48,521 nucleotides of DNA from the NCBI GenBank assembly GCA_029936885.1, contig JAPYRR010000005.1, positions 1 to 48,521 on the forward strand, written 5' to 3'. Shown piece by piece: positions 9,857 to 42,223 of this stretch. Each line of letters begins with the position of its first letter. Positions within the stretch are counted from its first letter, which is position 1. A model generated the notes under the pieces. The model saw only the letters and a list, made by a program, of their open reading frames with translations, did no database searches and had not been told where the DNA came from. Origin of the DNA: Fidelibacterota bacterium (GTDB lineage: Bacteria; Fidelibacterota; Marinisomatia; Marinisomatales; UBA1611). Made by a program: the position numbers and the translations under genes.

Positions 9857-10078
9857 ATGACCTATTACGTCTACATTCTCACAGACAAACGAAACGGAAC
9901 CCTTTATATCGGAGCTACAAATAATCTTGAGCAACGCATGTTCGATCATAAAAATGGAACGGGAAGCATTTTTACTAAAAAATACAAAGTAACTAATCTT
10001 ATGTATTATGAAGAAACAGATGATATTGGCGCAGCCATTCACCGGGAGAAACAACTCAAAAAATGGATGCTGAATTAA
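9857..10078 (+). pseudogene. Small GIY-YIG nuclease (YhbQ/UPF0213-like), C-terminally truncated
   Basis: YYVYIL..NGTLYIGATNNL..R..H, FTKKY, AIHREKQLKKW, then runs into a repeat and stops (MLN*); the usual WK..LIE..NP.W.DL tail is missing. Confidence 0.8.
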
Positions 10079-10093: not shown

Positions 10094-10972
10094 ATGGTAA
10101 AATTTAAATCCAAAAAGATGCGATTAACTCTCCTGATGATCCTGGCCATGATCACCTGGGGATTGTCGTGGACCAATGCAAAAATATTAGGTAATTATGG
10201 GGATGCACCGCTTATGATGTTTTGGCGATTTTTTATTGCCACTATTTCTTTTGCTCCGATAGTTTGGTTGAAAAAGGAATCATTTAAAATCAGTAAAGAA
10301 GCACTTCATTTTATTATTCTAAATTCTATATTTATGACATCTTACAACTTTTTTTATTTTAAAGGAACCCAAGTCGGATTAGCGGGAGAAGGTGGTGTCT
10401 TGGTCACAACGTTGAATCCGATTCTTACAACACTTTTTTCTGCGCTTTTCTTCGGTGGTATTTTATTGAGGAAAGATATTGTTGGACTCATGCTCGGATT
10501 TTTTGGCGGTGCATGTATTCTCAAAATATGGGATCTAAACCTTGATCTACTTTTTCAATCGGGGAATTTCCATTTTATTATGGCGTCCTTGTCTTGGGTG
10601 TCAGTAACGATCTTAACATCGAGATCAAAATCAGTCATCCCTTTTATTCCCTATAGTTTTTGGTGCTTCGCGCTATCAGCAATTTTTAGTTTATTCATAG
10701 CAGTGAATGAACCCTTGTTGGATGTTTTCCAATTTGATTGGATCTTTTGGCTAAATATGATGTGTTTGGCTGTAGCTGCCATGGCATTTGGTACATCAGT
10801 ATATTTTCAGGCTTCTGTGGAATTGGGGGCTAAAAAAGCCAGTGCTTACATATTCACCGTCCCCTTAACTGCCATGGGATTTGCCATGTATTATTTAGGT
10901 GAGCCGCTTATGATTACCACACTGATTGGAGGGACTTTGGGTGTTGCTGCGGTTTATTTGATCAATAAATAA
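10094..10972 (+). CDS. DMT/EamA family transporter
   Basis: About ten hydrophobic segments, WGLSW, duplicated EamA halves, LGEPL. Confidence 0.88.
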   Translation: MVKFKSKKMRLTLLMILAMITWGLSWTNAKILGNYGDAPLMMFWRFFIATISFAPIVWLKKESFKISKEALHFIILNSIFMTSYNFFYFKGTQVGLAGEGGVLVTTLNPILTTLFSALFFGGILLRKDIVGLMLGFFGGACILKIWDLNLDLLFQSGNFHFIMASLSWVSVTILTSRSKSVIPFIPYSFWCFALSAIFSLFIAVNEPLLDVFQFDWIFWLNMMCLAVAAMAFGTSVYFQASVELGAKKASAYIFTVPLTAMGFAMYYLGEPLMITTLIGGTLGVAAVYLINK

Positions 10973-11004
10973 AAAAGCCTCTGCCGGACGGCAGAGGCTT
11001 TTTT
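10971..11004. terminator. Bidirectional intrinsic terminator between convergent genes
   Basis: AAAAAAGCCTCTGCC-GGAC-GGCAGAGGCTTTTTT perfect stem with flanking A6/T6. Confidence 0.92.
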
Positions 11005-11021
11005 ACACTGTAGAATTCTGA

Positions 11022-12062
11022 TTAAGCTGGATTCTGTGATTTTTGAAATTTTTCTAATTGCTCCCCATAATATTTATCTTCAGAATCAAAAGAAATACAT
11101 TTTTCAATTTCAGCAATGGCTTCTTCTACTCGTCCCATTTTCCACAGGACTTCCGCTTTCGTATCGATATACATGTGTTTATTTTTTTCATCAATCTCAT
11201 TTTCGATCGCCCAATTAACTTTTTCTAAAGCAAGATCAAGATTTAACTTCAACTCGGACATACGCCAGGCAAATCCATTCAAATATCCTGAATTAGGATC
11301 TTTATTGGCATTGACAACTCGAATATATAGATTGGCTTCTAATTCAGGATCAACTCCACGCTGACGCACCAAGTACATAGCTTCTTGTAATGCATTTATT
11401 GAATTTTCACTATTAGGATTTTTATCTGCATAAACAATGAGTGGTGTCGGATCACGAGTTTCTCGTGCATCATATAAAATGGATTGAAAAGCGGCCGCTC
11501 CTGATGAATCTGTCCCGGCTTCAAGAATGGCATTGATCATTTCTCTGGCAGAAGCTTTATCATTCATATTTTCATATTTATTAGCCAATTTGAATAATGT
11601 ACTGAATTTTGTTCCGTCTAATTCCAATTCTCCCAATAAAGTTGGCAATGTATTTATACCATTTTTAATTTGGTTTAATTTTTCCAGAAATGGTTCCGGC
11701 GGCATATACCCTACGATCCTATCTACCTCCTGGCCATTCTCATTCGCTATGATAATTGTTGGAAATCCACGAACACCAAACTGTTTTGCTAGTTCAATCC
11801 CTTCTCCTTTTTCAGCATCAATTTTTAGGCTGATCAGGTTTTTATTTGCGAATGCTCTGACTTTATTATCAGAAAATGTATCGGCATCCAGCCGTTTACA
11901 CCATACTCACCATTCGGTCTCAAAATCCATCAGGACAAGTTTTCCACCGGATTGGGCTAGAATAGTTTGAAAGGGTACATCCTTATTCCAGGCATAGGGT
12001 TCCTTATTGGCACACCCAGAATAAAGGATTATTGTTATTACAATTAATATTAAATTTTTCAC
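11022..12062 (-). CDS. Thioredoxin-fold + TPR-like lipoprotein, predicted selenoprotein (UxxC; in-frame TGA at codon 52), 346 aa
   Basis: GTG at 12062 gives [17 protein letters not shown] (lipobox)...KLVLMDFETEW-TGA-VWCKRLDADTF...KIDAEKGEG..FGVRGFPT..EVDRIVGYMPP, in frame with track ORF 11022..11705; TGA at 11909-11907. Confidence 0.85.
11877..11900 (-). promoter_or_regulatory. Putative bacterial SECIS element
   Basis: After UGA: GUAUGG UGUA AA CGGC UGGAU GCCG A UACA; two-part stem, apical loop begins 17 nt downstream with G at loop position 2. Confidence 0.7.
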
Positions 12063-12472
12063 GCTTTCTCCATGTTTTCTTGAAAAATAGTTCGAATATA
12101 TTTCGGCATTCTTATAGGTTTCCCTTTTAAAGTTGTACTGGCATGAATCGTATATCCTTGTACTAATATTTCATCAGATTCTTTATTGCAGATGGTATAA
12201 TCAATTTTCAATTTTACCTTTGGGACGTCTTGGATAGAGGTTTTCACAATAATATCCTGACTAAATTTTGCGCCTTTTTTATACTCAGCATGTGCTTCAA
12301 TCACGGGAAGCATGGCACCATTTTCTTCTACTTTGACATAATCCAGACCGATTGAGGACAACATATCTGTCCGAGCTATTTCAAAGAATTCAAAATACCG
12401 CGAATAATACACAATCCCCATTTGATCGATATCTTTGTAATAGATCTTTATGTGATGATCGTATTGGATCAT
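12059..12472 (-). CDS. Acyl-CoA thioesterase, YbgC/FadM (4HBT) family
   Basis: [21 protein letters not shown] hotdog-fold motif. Confidence 0.9.
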
Positions 12473-13428
12473 GGTGTTTCAGTAAAATATCCTAGCTTGT
12501 CATATTTTTGGATTCGATTATTGAGAAAATTATTAGGTTCGATTTTTTCTAATTGATGTAATTCATCCACCAAGACAGATTTCAATGATTCTGCTGTATC
12601 TATAAAATTACGATGTGCACCCCCATTGGGTTCATCTACAATTCGATCACAGATTCCCACTTCCATAAGATCTTTTGGTGTTGGTTTTAATGCCTCAGCA
12701 GCATCTTCTGCCCTTTTCGCATCCCGGAATAAAATAGATGCACATCCTTCAGGACTGATCACAGAATACCATGTGTTTTCCAACATGAGCATCCTGTCAC
12801 AGACACCAATACCTAATGCCCCGCCACTGGCACCTTCACCGATTACTACGCCTACAATGGGTACCCGTAATCCTGACATTTCCAATAAATTTCGAGCAAT
12901 GGCTTCACCTTGACCCCTCTCTTCTGCTCCAATTCCTGGATAGGCTCCAATCGTGTCCATAAACGTAATAACAGGAAGACCAAATTTTTCAGCCAGTTTC
13001 ATGACACGCAAAGCTTTTCGATACCCTTCTGGACGCATCATGCCAAAATTGCGATAAAGATTTTCTTTCGTATTCCTTCCTTTTTGCTGGCCTATAAACG
13101 CTACTTTTCTGTTCTCAAAATGTCCAATTCCCGTGATGACTGCAGGATCATCCATGAAATGTCTGTCGCCGTGAAGCTCAATGAAATCAGGTGAAAAATA
13201 CTGGATATAATCAAGTGAGTGGGGTCTATTTGGATGTCTGGCTAACTGTACCCGCTGCCATCGCGATAATGTAGAATATATTTTTTCTATTTTTTCAGAT
13301 CTGCTTTCTTTTAATTTTGCAATGGATCGTAAATCATCTTTGGAAGGATCATTCGAAGATTCCAACTCGATGATCTGATCATCCAATACTCGGATGGGGG
13401 TTTCAAATTCTAGGTAATAATTTGACAT
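12469..13428 (-). CDS. accA: Acetyl-CoA carboxylase carboxyltransferase alpha subunit
   Basis: [50 protein letters not shown]. Confidence 0.97.
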
Positions 13429-13439
13429 TAGGTTTTTAT

Positions 13440-14489
13440 TTATGAATAGTTCTTATCTAGTTCGATGAAAGCCATAATTCCAAAGCAAATGGCAAGACCA
13501 AAAATAAAGTTCGCATACGTTACAGGTAAATTTAGACATAAAAACCCTATCATACTCAGGATGAGTGAGGCACCATGCATAATCAATACGGATTGTGGAA
13601 TCGGTATTCCTCTTTGAGCCAATCGATGAAACGTATGGTCATGGGATGCTTTGTGGATCTTTTTATTCCTTTTTAATCGAGAAATGATAACCAAAAGCAT
13701 ATCAAAAATAGGAACGGCAAAAATGAGAATTGGAACAAACCAGGTTGATGCTTGATTCCCAGTTTTAGGCTCATAAATAATTGCGATGGATGCCAATAAA
13801 AAGCCAAGCATCTGTGCTCCAGAATCACCTAAAAATAACCGAGCCGGATGTGAATTAAAAAAATAGAGTGCTATACATGTTCCAAGAATAACTGTACAAA
13901 GAAAAATTAGAGTTGGTTGCGCTGTTACTAACGCGATTACGAGAAATATGCCTGACGAAACTCCACTCAAGCCCACAGCCAAACCATCAGAACTATCAAT
14001 AAAATTAAATGCGTTTGTCACGGCCACGAGCCAAAATATTGTCAACCCCGTATTCAACCATGTATCCATAAAAGAATTGGTTCTAAAAAAGAATTCAGGT
14101 GATGAAAATATATTCACTTGGACGCCAAGATAAACGAGCACAACAGCTCCCAATATTTGTCCAATCATTTTTTTGGGCACGGAAAGATGCAGAAAATCGT
14201 CCAATAATCCAAATACGCCAATAATCATTCCTGAAGCAATTATAGCAAAAATATTTGGGTCTCGCCACATGCCTGATGCCAAAAGCATAATGATAAAAGT
14301 ATCTATCAAAACTATCCCACCTGTCAACGGAATTGGGGAATCATGGTTCTTATGGTCCGCACTACCCGGAATATCCATAAGCCCGATTTTAGGCGCGATT
14401 TTAAGGCTAAACCATGAAAGTGAAAGCGCAACAATAATGGTGGAGACCATTAAAAGAATGATTGGATCGAGTTGTGTAAAATTTTCCAT
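13440..14489 (-). CDS. WecA/MraY-family (GT4/PNPT) polyprenyl-phosphate sugar-phosphate transferase
   Basis: D.P...K.H..P.PLTGG, GLLDD, NAFNFID..DGL, FLGDSG, HTFHRL; multi-TM. Confidence 0.9.
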
Positions 14490-15353
14490 TTATCTTAGAA
14501 TAAGGTATTTACCTTCAGCAAAAATTAATTTACCAAACATCGCAAAAGAATAGAAAAGATTAAACAATGTTGAATAGTCACTGGCAAAATGTTTGAAATA
14601 ATATAGATAATACGATCGATGCCATTCAAAAATTGCTCTCATAGGAATCGTTCCAGAACCGCCTGCGCCACCAATATGTTTTACTATAGAATTTGGATTA
14701 TAATAGATAGACCATCCCATTTCCTTTGCACGTAAACAATAATCTGAATCCTCCTGATACGCAAAAAATTGTTCGTCAAAATAACCAATATTCTCAATGA
14801 CTTCTCTTTTGATCACCATGCATGAACCTGAAACTCCACTGACTTCATTGATTTCATTTTCATCCAAATGATTTAAGTGATATCCGGTATATTTTTTATT
14901 TTGTGGATATTTTTTTGATAAACCCAAAAAATAGGACAAAACATCTGCAGGACGAGCAATTCCCCGCCTACAGGATTGTTGAAACGTCCCGTCATAGTTC
15001 ACAACCTTTGGACCGCAAATCCCAATTTCATCATTTTTATCCAAAAATTGGATTAGAATGGAAATAGAATCCGGTTCAGGAAGGGTATCAGGATTCAATA
15101 CAACCAAGTACTTCCCTTCTGCTCTTTTCAATGCTTGATTGATAGCTCTCGTATACCCTTCATTTCGGATGTTTTTTATTAATTGAATATCTGGGAAATT
15201 TTGATGGATGAATTTTTGAGATCCATCTTTGGAATGGTTATCAACAATAATAGTCTCATAGGAACGATGACCTATAGATTTCGAAAGAGATTTAATGCAT
15301 GCACTAAGATGCTGTTTTGCATTCAGATTAACGATGCAAATGGATACTTTCAT
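14490..15353 (-). CDS. Glycosyltransferase family 2 (WbbL-like)
   Basis: MKVSICIVN start at 15353, VDNHSKDGS, LNPDT, SGSCM, FDEQFFAYQEDSDYC. Confidence 0.88.
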   Translation of the reverse strand: MKVSICIVNLNAKQHLSACIKSLSKSIGHRSYETIIVDNHSKDGSQKFIHQNFPDIQLIKNIRNEGYTRAINQALKRAEGKYLVVLNPDTLPEPDSISILIQFLDKNDEIGICGPKVVNYDGTFQQSCRRGIARPADVLSYFLGLSKKYPQNKKYTGYHLNHLDENEINEVSGVSGSCMVIKREVIENIGYFDEQFFAYQEDSDYCLRAKEMGWSIYYNPNSIVKHIGGAGGSGTIPMRAIFEWHRSYYLYYFKHFASDYSTLFNLFYSFAMFGKLIFAEGKYLILR

Positions 15354-15360
15354 ACAGGGT

Positions 15361-16074
15361 TTAGATCCACCCAAAGATCTTCCAGATCCGCAGACGCCAA
15401 ACCATCCAAATTGCTTCATACATTATGGTTTTGGACATTTTAGATTCGCCAATTGTACGATCATGAAAGATAATGGGTTCCTCCTTGATACGAGCCCCTT
15501 TAAGCCAGGCACGAAAATTCATCTCTATTTGGAATGAATATCCTTGGGACCTTACTTTATTTAATTCAATTTTCTCCATGAGGGAAACACGCCATGCTTT
15601 AAACCCGCCCGTACCATCATTGATTGGCATTCCCGTAATTGTTCTTGAATACATATTAGCACCATAGCTCAATATTAATCTTCGAATAGGCCAATTGACT
15701 ACACTTACACCATCAATATATCGACTTCCAATAACAAGGTCATTATCGGTGAGTTCGGCCACCAATCGCGGAACATCATTGGGATCATGAGACAAGTCCG
15801 CATCCATTTGTACAATCGCATCATAATCCCTTTCCAATGCCCATTTGAATCCAAAAAGGTACGCTGTACCTAAACCTGCTTTTCCTGGCCTTACTTCTAA
15901 ATAAAGGTTTGAATAAGATTTTTGGAGATTTTTAACAATTTCTCCTGTTCCATCAGGGGAATTATCATCTACAATTAATAAATGAAATTCCGGATTTGGA
16001 TCTAGAACCTTTTCAACAAGAAGTTGAATATTTTTACGTTCGTTATATGTGGGTGAAATAACTAAGGTTTTCAT
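15361..16074 (-). CDS. Polyprenol monophosphomannose synthase (DPM1/Ppm1-like GT2)
   Basis: PTYNERKNI, VDDNSPDGTG, GLGTAY..GF, QMDADLSH, GYSFQIEM, GESKMS. Confidence 0.9.
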   Translation of the reverse strand: MKTLVISPTYNERKNIQLLVEKVLDPNPEFHLLIVDDNSPDGTGEIVKNLQKSYSNLYLEVRPGKAGLGTAYLFGFKWALERDYDAIVQMDADLSHDPNDVPRLVAELTDNDLVIGSRYIDGVSVVNWPIRRLILSYGANMYSRTITGMPINDGTGGFKAWRVSLMEKIELNKVRSQGYSFQIEMNFRAWLKGARIKEEPIIFHDRTIGESKMSKTIMYEAIWMVWRLRIWKIFGWI

Positions 16075-38175: not shown

Positions 38176-39999
38176 TTATATTGACCTGGCCACTTTTATA
38201 ATCTCTGTCGCCACTTTCACAGGAATTCCCGTTTCTCCATGGATCACTTCCGGCGTGAGTTTGGCAATGGCTTTCGGACCGTCAAAGGTTTGGAGCAATT
38301 TTTCCAATCGTTTTTTTCCCATACCCGGGATTTTAGCAAAAACAGATAAAACCATATCCTTATTTCGTTTCTGTCGTTGAAATGTGATGGCAAAACGATG
38401 GGCTTCATCCCTGATCCGGCGTAATAAAATAAGACCCGGACTTTGTTTGTGGATTGATTGTGGGTCCGGATTCCCCGGAACGAAAACTTCTTCCAACCTT
38501 TTAGCCAATCCAACAACTGGAATGTAATCCAAGCCCAATTCTCTTAAGGCCGAAACGGCCATGCTTAACTGTCCTTTTCCCCCATCTATGAGGATAAGAT
38601 CAGGGAAAGGTTTTTCTTCATTTTTTACCCGTTTATAGCGACGAAATACCACTTCTCTCATAGCAGCAAAATCATCAATCCCAGTCACTGTTTTTACATT
38701 GAATTTTCGGTATTCGGTTTTTCTCGGTTTTGCATCGATAAAACAAACTAGGGAAGCCACCGTATTGGTTCCACCAAGATGGGAAATATCAAAAGCTTCA
38801 ATCCGTTTTGGGGGAACATCCATATTCAAATCTTCCTGAAGTTGCCCCAACATCTTTGGAATCTGTTCTTTCCGTTTAACACGATTAATGATCCATTCTC
38901 CCAAAAGGAGTTTCGCATTTTGCATAGTGACACGAAGCTCTTTTGCTTTTTCACCTTTTTGGGGATAGAGAAAATAAACAGCGCCATTTCGTTTTTCTTT
39001 CAACCATTGATTTAAGTCTTTTTCATCATTAGGCTGGAATTGAAGTGAAATTTCCTTTGGGATAAAATCGCTATCCATATAAAACCGTGAAATAACGGTT
39101 TGCAGCGTGGCTTTGTCATTTTCATCTAATCCCCGGAGAGAAAGTTTTTCTCGACTAAAAATCCGTCCATTTCGAATCCGAATAATCACCGCCACACCCA
39201 AATTATCTTCTCTCACCAGGGCGATCACATCTCGTTCTTCAAAATCTGTTGCTACGTGGCTTTGCTTTTCCTTGAAGGATCGCATGGCATACAATTGATC
39301 TCGATACATGGCTGCTTCTTCGTACTTTTGATTTGTGGATGATTTATGCATTAGATCGTTTATAAATGCTTCCGTACTCTTCGTTTTTCCCTTCATGAAA
39401 TCTTCAATACGGTTCACCATTTCTTGATAATTATCCTGAGAAACAAGACCTTCGCATGGACCTTCGCATCTCTTTATATGATAATCGAGGCATAGTTTTA
39501 CCTTTTTCTCAGCAACCATTTTATCATCCAAATAATAACTACAACTCCGAATTGGAAATACTTTATGAAGTGCTTTTAATGTTATACGAAGACGGCCAAC
39601 ATCAGTAAATGGTCCATAATACTTTGAACCATCCTTTATAATTTTTCTCGTCAATAAAACCTGTGGATATGGCTCTTTGGTAATTCGAATGAACGGGTAA
39701 GTTTTATCATCCTTTAAATCTATATTATATCTTGGGCGATGCGTTTTGATGAGATTCGCTTCCGTCATGAGAGCTTCCACTTCATTTCGCACCACGATCC
39801 ATTCAAGATTTTCAATATTTCGAACCAATGAAATAGTTTTTGCTCGCTGGTGTTTTTTACTTTGGAAATAAGTCCGGACCCGATTGCGAAGATTCTTGGC
39901 TTTGCCAACATAAATAATTTTTTTATCGGAATTGAAAAACTGATAAACCCCGGGATGGGTGGGAATTTGTTTCAGTTTTTCTTGGACGACACCATTCAT
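38176..39999 (-). CDS. uvrC: Excinuclease ABC subunit C
   Basis: PGVYQF, YVGKAKNLRNRV, IEAFDISH, DGGKGQL, RDEAHRFAI, HhH tail. Confidence 0.98.
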   Translation of the reverse strand: MNGVVQEKLKQIPTHPGVYQFFNSDKKIIYVGKAKNLRNRVRTYFQSKKHQRAKTISLVRNIENLEWIVVRNEVEALMTEANLIKTHRPRYNIDLKDDKTYPFIRITKEPYPQVLLTRKIIKDGSKYYGPFTDVGRLRITLKALHKVFPIRSCSYYLDDKMVAEKKVKLCLDYHIKRCEGPCEGLVSQDNYQEMVNRIEDFMKGKTKSTEAFINDLMHKSSTNQKYEEAAMYRDQLYAMRSFKEKQSHVATDFEERDVIALVREDNLGVAVIIRIRNGRIFSREKLSLRGLDENDKATLQTVISRFYMDSDFIPKEISLQFQPNDEKDLNQWLKEKRNGAVYFLYPQKGEKAKELRVTMQNAKLLLGEWIINRVKRKEQIPKMLGQLQEDLNMDVPPKRIEAFDISHLGGTNTVASLVCFIDAKPRKTEYRKFNVKTVTGIDDFAAMREVVFRRYKRVKNEEKPFPDLILIDGGKGQLSMAVSALRELGLDYIPVVGLAKRLEEVFVPGNPDPQSIHKQSPGLILLRRIRDEAHRFAITFQRQKRNKDMVLSVFAKIPGMGKKRLEKLLQTFDGPKAIAKLTPEVIHGETGIPVKVATEIIKVARSI

Positions 40000-40291
40000 A
40001 CTTATGTGAAATTACACATTTTTTATTGAGTAATAATTCTTAATGTTGTTTTGATATTTTAACTTTCAAATGAAACATTTAAATAATGATCATAAAGGGT
40101 AATGCTTGTTAATGAATTTTTGAAATAAGTCTATTAAAACGTATTATTTTATATTTATTCTAAAACAGTATATTATTAGTTATACATAGTTTTATAATTA
40201 ATAATTAACTATTTGGATTATAGGAGAATGATGATTAGCATCTACCATTAGAATAACATTTTTGCAAGGTAATCCAAATGATCAACAAAAG

Positions 40292-41772: not shown

Positions 41773-42180
41773 TTAATTCTGCTTTTCAGCTAATTCTACT
41801 AATACCCCACCCGTTGATTTTGGATGAATGAATACAACTTTATACCCTTCTGCTCCAGTGGATGGTTCATCGCTTAATACATGAATATTATTTTCTTTAA
41901 GTTCCTTTATTGCTAGATATATATCTTCTACTTCAAAACATACATGATGGATTCCGGCCCCTCGTTTTTCTATGAATTTCGCGATAGCTGATCCTGGTTT
42001 TGTTGATTCAAGGAGTTCAATTTTTCCATTCCCTGTGTCATAAATATCCGTGGTAACACTCTGGTCTTCCACCACTTCTGTGGATTGGTGTTCAATATTT
42101 AAAATATGATTCCAAAATGGGGCATCATTTTCCAGGTCTTTTACGGCAATTCCGAGATGTTCAATTCCAAGTATTTTCAT
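41773..42180 (-). CDS. mce: Methylmalonyl-CoA epimerase
   Basis: IEHLGIAV, KIELLE, G.GIHHVCFEV, FIHPKSTGGVLVEL. Confidence 0.93.
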   Translation of the reverse strand: MKILGIEHLGIAVKDLENDAPFWNHILNIEHQSTEVVEDQSVTTDIYDTGNGKIELLESTKPGSAIAKFIEKRGAGIHHVCFEVEDIYLAIKELKENNIHVLSDEPSTGAEGYKVVFIHPKSTGGVLVELAEKQN

Positions 42181-42223
42181 TTTTTATTTCAACACAGATT
42201 TCATTATGATTACTCATAAATAT

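What the first reader, a model, noticed from the sequence alone, without database searches (positions are those of the whole stretch)
11022..12062. Hidden selenoprotein: lipoprotein thioredoxin (UxxC) fused to a TPR-like domain, with a SECIS-like hairpin
Seen: the ORF track reports only a 227-aa TPR-like fragment. The frame extends 119 codons upstream to a GTG at 12062 that overlaps the thioesterase stop (GTGA). It encodes a lipobox (LYSGC), then DFETEW-TGA-VWCKRLD, with the single TGA (11909-11907) exactly at the first Cys of the thioredoxin WCxxC motif. A cis-Pro GFPT motif follows, and there are no other lesions. Directly 3' of the UGA is the hairpin UGUA-AA-CGGC[UGGAU]GCCG-A-UACA, whose loop starts 17 nt downstream with an early G. 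Established: Trx-fold UxxC selenoproteins and UGA-proximal SECIS elements are the bacterial Sec pattern. Inference: an exported, lipid-anchored Sec-thioredoxin with a TPR-like binding module, sitting at the end of an envelope/lipid operon and routinely mis-annotated as a split gene. Many neighbouring genes end in TGA, so this is site-specific recoding rather than code 4/25.
Basis: partly seen in the sequence, partly recalled or inferred. Interest (0 to 1): 0.85.

Follow-up and report, generated by a model that had tools for sequence, protein, structure and literature searches.

The report
Hidden selenocysteine thioredoxin-TPR lipoprotein gene
The apparent stop codon inside this gene almost certainly encodes selenocysteine at the active site of an exported, lipid-anchored thioredoxin-type redox protein that is widespread in marine Marinimicrobia but cut short in public annotations; it is a well-supported new example of a known kind of selenoprotein.

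Summary
One frame runs from GTG 12062 to TAA 11022 (346 codons). It has a single in-frame TGA at 11907-11909, at the first position of a thioredoxin UxxC motif, followed by a hairpin.

The selenoprotein reading is strongly supported:
- The genome holds tRNA-Sec, selA, selB and selD.
- TGA is an ordinary stop elsewhere in the genome.
- Of 106 orthologues from Marinimicrobia genomes, 84 have TGA at the same column and 22 have Cys.
- The 4-bp core of the hairpin is fully paired in 80 of 83 Sec forms but in only 3 of 21 Cys forms. It shows compensatory changes and rare codons chosen to keep it.
- Contigs of three independent studies show the same TGA.

The protein has a signal peptide with a lipobox Cys, a DsbD-gamma-like thioredoxin domain and a TPR-like helical domain. 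This two-domain architecture matches cytoplasmic CnoX/YbbN.

UxxC thioredoxin-fold selenoproteins of this Pfam type are already catalogued ("thiol:disulfide interchange protein" / "Trx-like 2"). This scan also found the same family before in another genome. It is therefore a new member of a known kind, of moderate interest. Selenium incorporation, the substrate and the reductant are untested.

The parts
11022..12062 (-). Complete selenoprotein gene: 346 codons, GTG start, TAA stop, one Sec-UGA
   Evidence: Full-length orthologues align from residue 1-10 to about 340-346.
12060..12062 (-). GTG start codon, overlapping the thioesterase stop codon as GTGA
   Evidence: Orthologues start at the aligned position, mostly with ATG (MKN...).
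12012..12062 (-). Signal peptide with lipobox (residues 1-17, ...LYSG-C17)
   Evidence: Cys at this column in 90 of 99 full-length orthologues. AF2 models residues 2-15 as a lone helix followed by a low-confidence linker. No signal-peptide predictor was available.
11907..11909 (-). Sec-UGA codon (U52), first position of the UxxC redox motif
   Evidence: TGA in 84 and TGT/TGC in 22 of 106 orthologues at this column. No difference listed here in contigs of 3 DNA runs from 3 studies.
11898..11900 (-). Resolving cysteine C55 of UxxC
   Evidence: Cys in 99 of 99 full-length orthologues.
11877..11900 (-). bSECIS-like hairpin: lower stem 11897-11900 / 11877-11880, core stem CGGC 11891-11894 / GCCG 11882-11885, loop UGGAU 11886-11890
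   Evidence: Folds at -7.6 kcal/mol (24 nt) or -9.7 kcal/mol (28 nt). Core fully paired in 80 of 83 Sec forms against 3 of 21 Cys forms. On 74 distinct Sec sequences the 4 core pairs have 0 unpaired cells and 17 double-sided changes.
11676..11954 (-). Thioredoxin-fold domain (residues 37-129), DsbD-gamma-like, with cis-Pro P101 (11760-11762)
   Evidence: Pfam PF13098, E 3.7e-18. PDB sequence hits to 2kuc and DsbD C-terminal domains. Foldseek TM (target) 0.73-0.81. P101 in 99 of 99.
11034..11648 (-). All-helical TPR-like domain (residues 139-343, 13 helices)
   Evidence: AF2 mean pLDDT 91.7. Pfam TPR_8 at 302-328, E 1.4e-6. Foldseek hits to consensus TPR superhelices and to YbbN. Conserved N262, W266, R267, M268, D300, T301, E304, K338.
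10969..11006 (-). Intrinsic-terminator-like hairpin plus T-run just after the stop codon
   Evidence: 17 pairs, 7 of them G-C, followed by a T tail.
12059..15419 (-). Upstream co-directional genes: GT2 (14490-15419), GT4 (13440-14489), AccA (12469-13428) and 4HBT thioesterase (12059-12472)
   Evidence: Pfam. The thioesterase lies directly upstream in 14 of 19 related loci, and accA was found in 15 of the 19.

Best explanation
This is a genuine selenoprotein gene of a Marinimicrobia (SAR406) bacterium.

Decoding. The UGA at codon 52 is decoded as selenocysteine. A small hairpin lies inside the coding sequence, with its apical loop UGGAU starting 17 nt after the UGA. It acts as the bacterial SECIS, recruiting SelB with Sec-tRNA(Sec) to the ribosome (inferred from the standard bacterial mechanism).

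Product. The product is a 346-residue exported protein. It has a signal peptide ending in a lipobox cysteine, so it is probably lipid-anchored on the periplasmic side. It has a DsbD-gamma-like thioredoxin domain whose redox pair is U52-x-x-C55, forming a selenenylsulfide. It also has a C-terminal TPR-like helical domain.

Most likely function (inferred, not shown). It is an envelope thiol-disulfide oxidoreductase, probably acting as a reductase or isomerase. The TPR domain would dock client or partner proteins, making it a periplasmic counterpart in architecture of the cytoplasmic chaperedoxin CnoX/YbbN.

History. In the orthologues sampled the Sec form is the common state, with scattered replacements by Cys.
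For: Shown by computation:
1. Frame and domain. A single in-frame TGA sits inside a Thioredoxin_2 match that spans it.
2. Sec/Cys pairs. 84 TGA and 22 Cys at one column in 106 orthologues of 28-72% identity. Residues are conserved on both sides of the TGA: W25 94/99, F47 98/99, C55 99/99, P101 99/99.
3. Machinery in this 87%-complete genome. tRNA-Sec; adjacent SelA and SelB; SelD, itself with a TGA at the GSGU-ASK position. SelA was found in 39 of 41 related genomes.
4. The hairpin meets the published bSECIS model as quoted in PMC13188914 (passages, Fig. 2 legend). The model asks for a loop of 3-9 nt, a stem of at least 4 bp, G in the first two loop positions, 16-37 nt spacing, and MFE at or below -7.5. 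Here the values are 5 nt, 4 bp plus 4 further pairs, UGG, 16 nt, and -7.6 to -9.7.
5. Covariation.
   - Core stem: 0 of 296 cells unpaired, with 17 double-sided changes.
   - All nine pairs together: 86.6% of cells paired, against 19-55% when the 3' partners are slid by 1-3 columns.
   - When the Arg codon CGG is replaced by CUG, CAG or AUG, the third base of the paired Ala codon changes to match.
6. Codon choice.
   - In Sec forms: CTG in 77 of 83 Leu, CGG in 64 of 74 Arg, GCC in 56 of 66 Ala.
   - Genome-wide usage of the same codons: 7.9%, 14.6% and 20.2%.
7. The hairpin is lost in most Cys forms: 4/4 core pairs in 3 of 21.
8. TGA is a normal stop: 224 of 807 long ORFs end in it.
9. The TGA stands in contigs from three studies.
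10. Fold. AF2 pLDDT 91.7. The best Foldseek match is E. coli YbbN (3qou), and the Trx domain matches DsbD-gamma.
11. The lipobox Cys is conserved in 90 of 99 orthologues.
Against: - No direct evidence of selenium incorporation or of translation across the UGA.
- No Rfam family matched the hairpin.
- The hairpin overlaps the conserved peptide R-L-D-A-D, so part of its conservation is protein-level. Three Cys forms still carry it.
- The whole-stretch fold is only modestly better than shuffles (z = -2.4).
- Three divergent Sec orthologues (L137-L139) lack the hairpin in this register and have another one a few bases away.
- No DsbD/CcdA membrane domain (PF02683) was found in this 87%-complete genome, so the electron donor for a reductase role is unknown.
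- The global superposition on YbbN is poor (TM 0.26-0.31, rmsd 21 A). The likeness is in architecture only.
- Lipoprotein status rests on sequence pattern alone.
- The direction of change (Sec to Cys) rests on a FastTree with a midpoint root.
Confidence: 0.93

Rival explanations
1. The TGA is a nonsense mutation or an assembly or sequencing error, and the gene is a pseudogene or really has Cys there.
For: Table 11 splits the frame. Public databases hold only truncated products of 227 and about 268 aa for the close relatives.
Against: TGA stands at the same column in 84 of 106 orthologues down to 28% identity, with protein conservation on both sides. Contig pieces of two runs covering the site have 0 differences, and a third run lists none there. 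The hairpin covaries.
Confidence: 0.01
2. The organism reads TGA as a standard amino acid (code 4/25-like, Trp or Gly), so no selenocysteine is involved.
For: Two database proteins of this family (P0013, P0024) carry W at the Sec column. This may only reflect a source pipeline translating TGA as Trp.
Against: 224 of 807 ORFs of 250 codons or more end in TGA. The SelA, SelB and EF-type frames have no internal TGA. Complete Sec machinery is present. The aligned residue in homologues is Cys, not Trp or Gly.
Confidence: 0.01
3. The UGA mostly terminates translation. The cell makes a 51-residue lipopeptide and, from an internal start, a separate TPR protein, and Sec read-through is rare or conditional on selenium supply.
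For: Bacterial Sec insertion competes with release factor 2 (established knowledge, recalled). No expression data are available here.
Against: The thioredoxin fold would be split into non-functional pieces. The internal ATG at 11705 lies inside the fold. Cys orthologues are made as one chain of 343-351 aa. Residues on both sides are conserved in one frame.
Confidence: 0.04

Closest known systems
[quoted passage not shown]
   Same: The best Pfam domain is PF13098. The motif is UxxC with Sec first. The thioredoxin domain is DsbD-gamma-like by sequence and fold. There are many Cys homologues. The setting is marine.
   Different: Neither paper mentions a TPR fusion, a lipobox or Marinimicrobia (0 occurrences of 'TPR', 'tetratricopeptide', 'Marinimicrobia', 'Marinisomatota' or 'SAR406' in PMC13188914; 0 of 'TPR' and 'signal peptide' in PMC2398784). 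Direct homology to the catalogued exemplar could not be tested here, and supplements were not available.
CnoX / YbbN chaperedoxin (E. coli, PDB 3qou; Salmonella 3qdn)
   Same: An N-terminal thioredoxin domain is followed by a TPR helical domain. These are the top Foldseek hits (E 1.7e-7 and 1.2e-6).
   Different: CnoX is cytoplasmic (recalled), whereas this protein has a signal peptide and lipobox. Sequence identity is 18% and the global TM is only 0.26-0.31. The helical domain here is longer (13 helices). The active site here holds Sec. No CnoX-specific family was hit in Pfam or NCBIfam.
DsbD C-terminal (gamma) domain and the Bacteroides thetaiotaomicron putative disulphide isomerase 2kuc
   Same: These are the closest solved thioredoxin domains: 2kuc at E 1.9e-19 with TM (target) 0.81 and 35% identity, and DsbD-gamma at TM (target) 0.73-0.79.
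   Different: There is no DsbD membrane or alpha domain here. The PF02683 family was not found in this genome. This protein has Sec instead of Cys and carries a TPR domain.
[quoted passage not shown]
   Same: It is the best NCBIfam hit, over its DsbD-gamma-like C-terminal part (E 1.8e-19).
   Different: The score is 69 bits against a cut-off of 805. Only the thioredoxin part matches, and there is no rhodanese domain. TsoB is listed with a UxxxxU motif and 2 Sec (PMC13188914 passages). This protein is not a member.

Membership tests
Bacterial selenoprotein gene (Sec-UGA recoding) | In-frame UGA aligned with Cys in homologues (Sec/Cys pair) | tested here: met
   22 of 106 orthologues have TGT/TGC at the column where 84 have TGA.
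Bacterial selenoprotein gene (Sec-UGA recoding) | UGA-containing homologues in other organisms, with coding conservation on both sides | tested here: met
   W25, F47, C55 and P101 are conserved in 94-99 of 99.
Bacterial selenoprotein gene (Sec-UGA recoding) | bSECIS stem-loop just 3' of the UGA that meets the consensus model (loop 3-9 nt, stem of at least 4 bp, G in loop positions 1-2, spacing 16-37 nt, MFE at or below -7.5) | tested here: met
   Loop UGGAU, 4-bp core plus 4 further pairs, 16 nt spacing, -7.6 to -9.7 kcal/mol. Criteria taken from PMC13188914 (passages). Spacing and core stem length are at the lower limits. bSECISearch itself was not run.
Bacterial selenoprotein gene (Sec-UGA recoding) | selA, selB, selC and selD in the genome | tested here: met
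Bacterial selenoprotein gene (Sec-UGA recoding) | Selenium actually incorporated at the UGA | not testable with these tools
   Needs proteomics or 75Se labelling.
Thiol:disulfide interchange / Trx-like 2 selenoproteins (PF13098 / cd02953, UxxC) | PF13098 thioredoxin-like domain with UxxC, Sec first | tested here: met
   PF13098, E 3.7e-18, residues 37-129. Motif U52-V-W-C55.
Thiol:disulfide interchange / Trx-like 2 selenoproteins (PF13098 / cd02953, UxxC) | Assignment to cd02953, or direct homology to the catalogued exemplar | not tested
DsbD-gamma likeness is shown only through PDB and NCBIfam hits.
CnoX/YbbN chaperedoxin | Thioredoxin domain followed by a TPR domain | tested here: met
   (3qou is the top hit).
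CnoX/YbbN chaperedoxin | Cytoplasmic protein without a signal peptide, and sequence-family membership | tested here: not met
   An N-terminal signal peptide with lipobox is conserved. Identity is 18%. No CnoX family appears. It may work like CnoX but is not a member.
Bacterial lipoprotein | Signal peptide ending in a lipobox with an invariant Cys | tested here: met
   MKN-hydrophobic stretch-YSG-C17. Cys in 90 of 99 orthologues. Pattern only; no predictor was run, and lgt/lspA were not searched.

The most novel reading that the evidence does not exclude
This may be a distinct, so far undescribed selenoprotein family: a periplasmic, lipid-anchored 'seleno-chaperedoxin'. It would be the first thioredoxin-TPR (CnoX-like) fusion with an active-site selenocysteine. 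It would be ancestral to and retained across much of the phylum Marinimicrobia, where it would protect or repair envelope proteins. Its SECIS hairpin would be so tightly embedded that it fixes the peptide motif R-L-D-A-D/E in Sec forms, a motif that relaxes once Sec is replaced by Cys.
Probability: 0.3. Interest if true: 0.5.

Novelty: new member of a known kind. Interest (0 to 1): 0.35.

Why it matters
Marinimicrobia (SAR406) are abundant, uncultured ocean bacteria. In the genomes sampled here about a third carry this gene, and most of those carry it in the selenocysteine form. Standard gene calling nevertheless splits it, so public protein sets hold only truncated pieces (227- and about 268-aa products).

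Correct annotation would do three things:
- add an envelope redox selenoprotein to the selenium demand of this phylum;
- show that the full Sec trait is common there, although three SAR406 single-cell genomes were once listed as having only an orphan SelD (Table 1 of PMC5029168);
- provide a clean natural data set of Sec/Cys switches, at least 11-13 on the tree, with gain or loss of a minimal SECIS. That is useful for training selenoprotein and SECIS predictors.

Tried and rejected
- Rfam scan of 11700-12000 at E up to 10 gave only three chance-level hits and no SECIS family.
- RNA evidence. The one metatranscriptome contig laid (X19) covers only 11013-11237, has 8 differences and runs on into unlike sequence. 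It says nothing about expression of this gene or translation across the UGA.
- Electron donor. A DsbD/CcdA membrane domain (PF02683) was not found in the 87%-complete genome.
- SelW-like family (PF10262) was not found in this genome.
- Third redox cysteine. C322 in the TPR domain was invariant in the 22-row alignment, but it is Cys in only 67 of 99 orthologues. The idea was dropped.
- Genome-contig scan. The pattern-based scan found only 6 close relatives. It was used only to name the phylum.
- Rows left out:
  - L036 (G023), a C-terminal fragment.
  - The G245 hit and the second G014 fragment, which were never fetched.
  - L137-L139, left out of the covariation alignment because their hairpin is in another register.
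  - 7 short rows, left out of the tree.
- No complex prediction was run, because no partner is known.

Full report
**Observation**

On the minus strand, table 11 yields two ORFs in one frame: a 51-aa ORF (11907-12062, GTG start) and a 227-aa ORF (11022-11705). Reading TGA as U joins them into a 346-residue product. It has exactly one recoded codon, U52, in the context DFETEW-U-VWC-KRLDAD.

The GTG start overlaps the stop of the upstream 4HBT thioesterase as GTGA. The hairpin UGUA-AA-CGGC[UGGAU]GCCG-A-UACA lies at 11877-11900. The 63-nt stretch from the codon before the UGA folds at -16.3 kcal/mol (z = -2.4; 5 of 200 shuffles fold as well).

**Is the frame one protein?**

- Pfam Thioredoxin_2 (PF13098) matches residues 37-129 across the TGA (E 3.7e-18). 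TPR_8 matches residues 302-328.
- NCBIfam gives only partial, sub-threshold hits to DsbD-type and thioredoxin models.
- An AlphaFold2 model built on a 22-row alignment has mean pLDDT 91.7. It shows a signal-peptide helix, a thioredoxin fold and 13 helices.
- Foldseek against the PDB puts E. coli YbbN/CnoX (3qou, E 1.7e-7) and its Salmonella homologue first. Both are thioredoxin-plus-TPR proteins, but the global TM is only 0.26-0.31.
- The thioredoxin domain alone matches DsbD-gamma (TM of the target 0.73-0.79) and the B. thetaiotaomicron disulphide isomerase 2kuc (0.81, 35% identity).

**Does the organism decode Sec?**

The genome (1.71 Mb, 125 contigs, 87% complete) holds the full machinery:
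- A tRNA-Sec (67.2 bits against a cut-off of 47), which ARAGORN calls tRNA-SeC with anticodon tca.
- SelA (438.7 bits) and SelB (315.5 bits plus its C-terminal part), adjacent on one contig.
- SelD with one in-frame TGA at the ...GSG-U-ASK... position.
- An AhpD-like (CMD) match that also holds one TGA.

TGA is otherwise a normal stop. Of 807 ORFs of at least 250 codons, 493 end in TAA, 224 in TGA and 90 in TAG. SelA was found in 39 of 41 related genomes. The two without it are 60% complete and a 1.1-Mb genome that also lacks the orthologue.

**Comparative evidence**

Named relatives are Marinimicrobia / Neomarinimicrobiota MAGs.
- A search of 41 related genomes found an orthologue of this protein in 20 of them, most with '1 TGA' inside.
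- A sample of 301 genomes of the phylum gave 102 with a match at E <= 1e-30.
- I fetched 87 further regions and analysed 107 loci.
- 106 of these loci cover the Sec column: 84 have TGA and 22 have TGT or TGC. That is 83 and 21 in the automatic count plus L129 and L097, which I read by eye.
- L036 is a C-terminal fragment. The G245 hit and a second G014 fragment were not fetched.
- Identity to the window protein runs from 72% down to 28%.
- In 99 full-length rows, C55 and P101 are present in 99, F47 in 98, W25 in 94 and the lipobox Cys17 in 90.
- On a FastTree of these 99 rows (79 Sec, 20 Cys; midpoint root), the Cys forms are small groups nested among Sec forms. They need at least 13 changes, 11 of which are forced by well-supported branches. 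This fits Sec as the older state, but the direction was not formally tested.

**The hairpin**

- Criteria. The review PMC13188914 (passages read, Fig. 2 legend) gives the bSECIS model: a loop of 3-9 nt, an upper stem of 4-16 bp, a G in the first two loop positions, 16-37 nt between the UGA and the loop, and MFE <= -7.5 kcal/mol. Here the loop is UGGAU, and the core stem is 4 bp, extended by 4 more pairs beyond a small internal loop. The spacing is 16 nt and the energy is -7.6 (24 nt) to -9.7 (28 nt) kcal/mol. Spacing and core stem length are at the lower limits.
- Sec against Cys forms. The four core pairs are all formed in 80 of 83 Sec orthologues, but in only 3 of 21 Cys orthologues. The three Sec exceptions (L137-L139, the most divergent rows) have a different hairpin a few bases further on.
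- Covariation. This was counted on 74 distinct Sec sequences: 83 rows gave 77 distinct strings, of which I left out those three.
  - The core pairs have 0 unpaired cells and 17 cells changed on both sides.
  - The nine-pair structure is 86.6% paired, against 19-55% when the 3' partners are slid by 1-3 columns.
  - 0 of 500 shuffles reach the observed covariation score.
- Protein versus RNA selection. The changes are informative because the stem lies in codons for R-L-D-A. Where Arg CGG is replaced by Leu CUG, Gln CAG or Met AUG, the third base of the paired Ala codon is A, U or A respectively. That is selection on RNA, not on protein.
- Codon choice agrees.
  - In Sec forms: CTG in 77 of 83 Leu, CGG in 64 of 74 Arg and GCC in 56 of 66 Ala.
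  - These codons make up 7.9%, 14.6% and 20.2% of their families in this genome.
  - In Cys forms, CTG is 8 of 19 Leu, and the Ala is often replaced by Glu, Lys or Ser.
- Fossil hairpins. Three Cys forms (L081, L104, L140) keep the hairpin, and L081 and L104 are nested among Sec forms on the tree. These look like recent replacements.
- Rfam has no matching family.

**Sequence reliability**

Contigs of three DNA runs from three different studies cover 11907-11909. The X4 and X5 pieces over the site have 0 differences. The X10 piece has 3 differences, of which two are listed (11284 and 11481), and none is listed at the codon. Together with 83 other TGA-bearing orthologues, this excludes an error.

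**Context**

The gene is the last of a co-directional string: GT2, GT4 (MraY/WecA-type), AccA, 4HBT thioesterase. It is followed by a strong terminator-like hairpin at 10969-11006. An EamA transporter converges on the other strand.
- The thioesterase lies directly upstream in 14 of 19 related loci.
- accA was found in 15 of the 19, once directly upstream with no thioesterase between.

This conserved order does not by itself indicate a shared function.

**How it most likely works**

- Shown: the frame, the domain content, the Sec/Cys pairs, the covarying hairpin and the machinery.
- Inferred from the established bacterial mechanism: SelB with Sec-tRNA(Sec) binds the hairpin as the ribosome reaches the UGA and inserts Sec.
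- Inferred from the sequence: export, lipidation at C17, and a selenenylsulfide redox pair U52/C55 in a DsbD-gamma-like domain.
- My best guess is an envelope thiol-disulfide reductase or isomerase whose TPR domain binds clients. That would make it a periplasmic analogue of CnoX.
- The electron donor is open, because no DsbD/CcdA membrane domain was found in this incomplete genome.

**Comparison with what is known**

The 2026 review lists a 'Thiol:disulfide interchange protein' selenoprotein family with PF13098 and UxxC. [quoted passage not shown] This gene fits that kind.

Neither text mentions TPR, and the review mentions no Marinimicrobia.
- A full-text search for 'Marinimicrobia' with 'selenoprotein' found 3 papers, none with both terms in title or abstract.
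- A search for 'selenocysteine' with 'SAR406' also found 3 papers. One of them lists three SAR406 single-cell genomes as orphan-SelD organisms (Table 1 of PMC5029168).

Supplements, which might list this family, could not be seen. This scan found the same family before on another genome and reached the same verdict (e1-2420146). I re-tested its claims independently here.

**Verdict**

This is a real, well-supported selenoprotein gene that standard annotation mis-calls. It is a new member (with a TPR-fusion, lipoprotein architecture) of a known kind, and of moderate interest.

Noticed in passing
G000:C87:8621-9547 (L009): SelD of this genome is itself a selenoprotein candidate. It has one in-frame TGA in ...LSHGSG-U-ASKIGP..., and the 60 nt from the UGA fold at -17.9 kcal/mol.
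   Followed up: partly
G000:C81:17360-17512 (L141): An AhpD-like (Pfam CMD) match holds one in-frame TGA in a 194-aa open frame. It is probably a third selenoprotein gene of this genome.
   Followed up: no
G000:C43:1914-4900 (L008, L010): selA and selB are adjacent on one contig. tRNA-Sec lies on another contig (C66:6112-6203).
   Followed up: partly
P0013 and P0024 (database proteins): Two public full-length proteins of this family carry W at the Sec column (EWWGWC, EWWTWC). This is probably a TGA translated as Trp by the source's gene caller, but a real TGG was not excluded.
   Followed up: no
L081, L104, L140 (Cys orthologues): Three Cys forms still carry the complete core hairpin (a 'fossil' SECIS), and L081 and L104 are nested among Sec forms on the tree (L140 was too short for it). 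The other 18 Cys forms have lost it, and the R-L-D-A peptide motif has relaxed.
   Followed up: partly
L137, L138, L139 (most divergent Sec orthologues): These keep the TGA but have a different hairpin (for example GGACC-AGUU-GGUCU) a few bases further 3', instead of the CGGC/GCCG stem.
   Followed up: no
literature: PMC5029168 Table 1: Three SAR406 single-cell genomes were listed in 2016 as having an orphan SelD. Here SelA was found in 39 of 41 related genomes, so the full Sec trait appears to be common in this group.
   Followed up: partly
window 9857-10078 (+): A 73-aa ORF (MTYYVYILTDKRNGTLYIGATNNLEQR...) looks like a small GIY-YIG-type protein. This is recalled resemblance and was not tested.
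   Followed up: no
G000:C6:23714-24589 and 39223-40098; C6:26315-26710 and 41824-42219: Two pairs of GTPase (EF-type) matches with identical scores lie 15.5 kb apart on contig C6. This suggests a duplicated block such as a tuf/fus region.
   Followed up: no
window 11034-11648 (-), residues N262, W266, R267, M268, D300, T301, E304, K338: A set of polar and aromatic residues in the TPR-like domain is conserved in 96-99 of 99 orthologues. It is a candidate client- or partner-binding surface.
   Followed up: no
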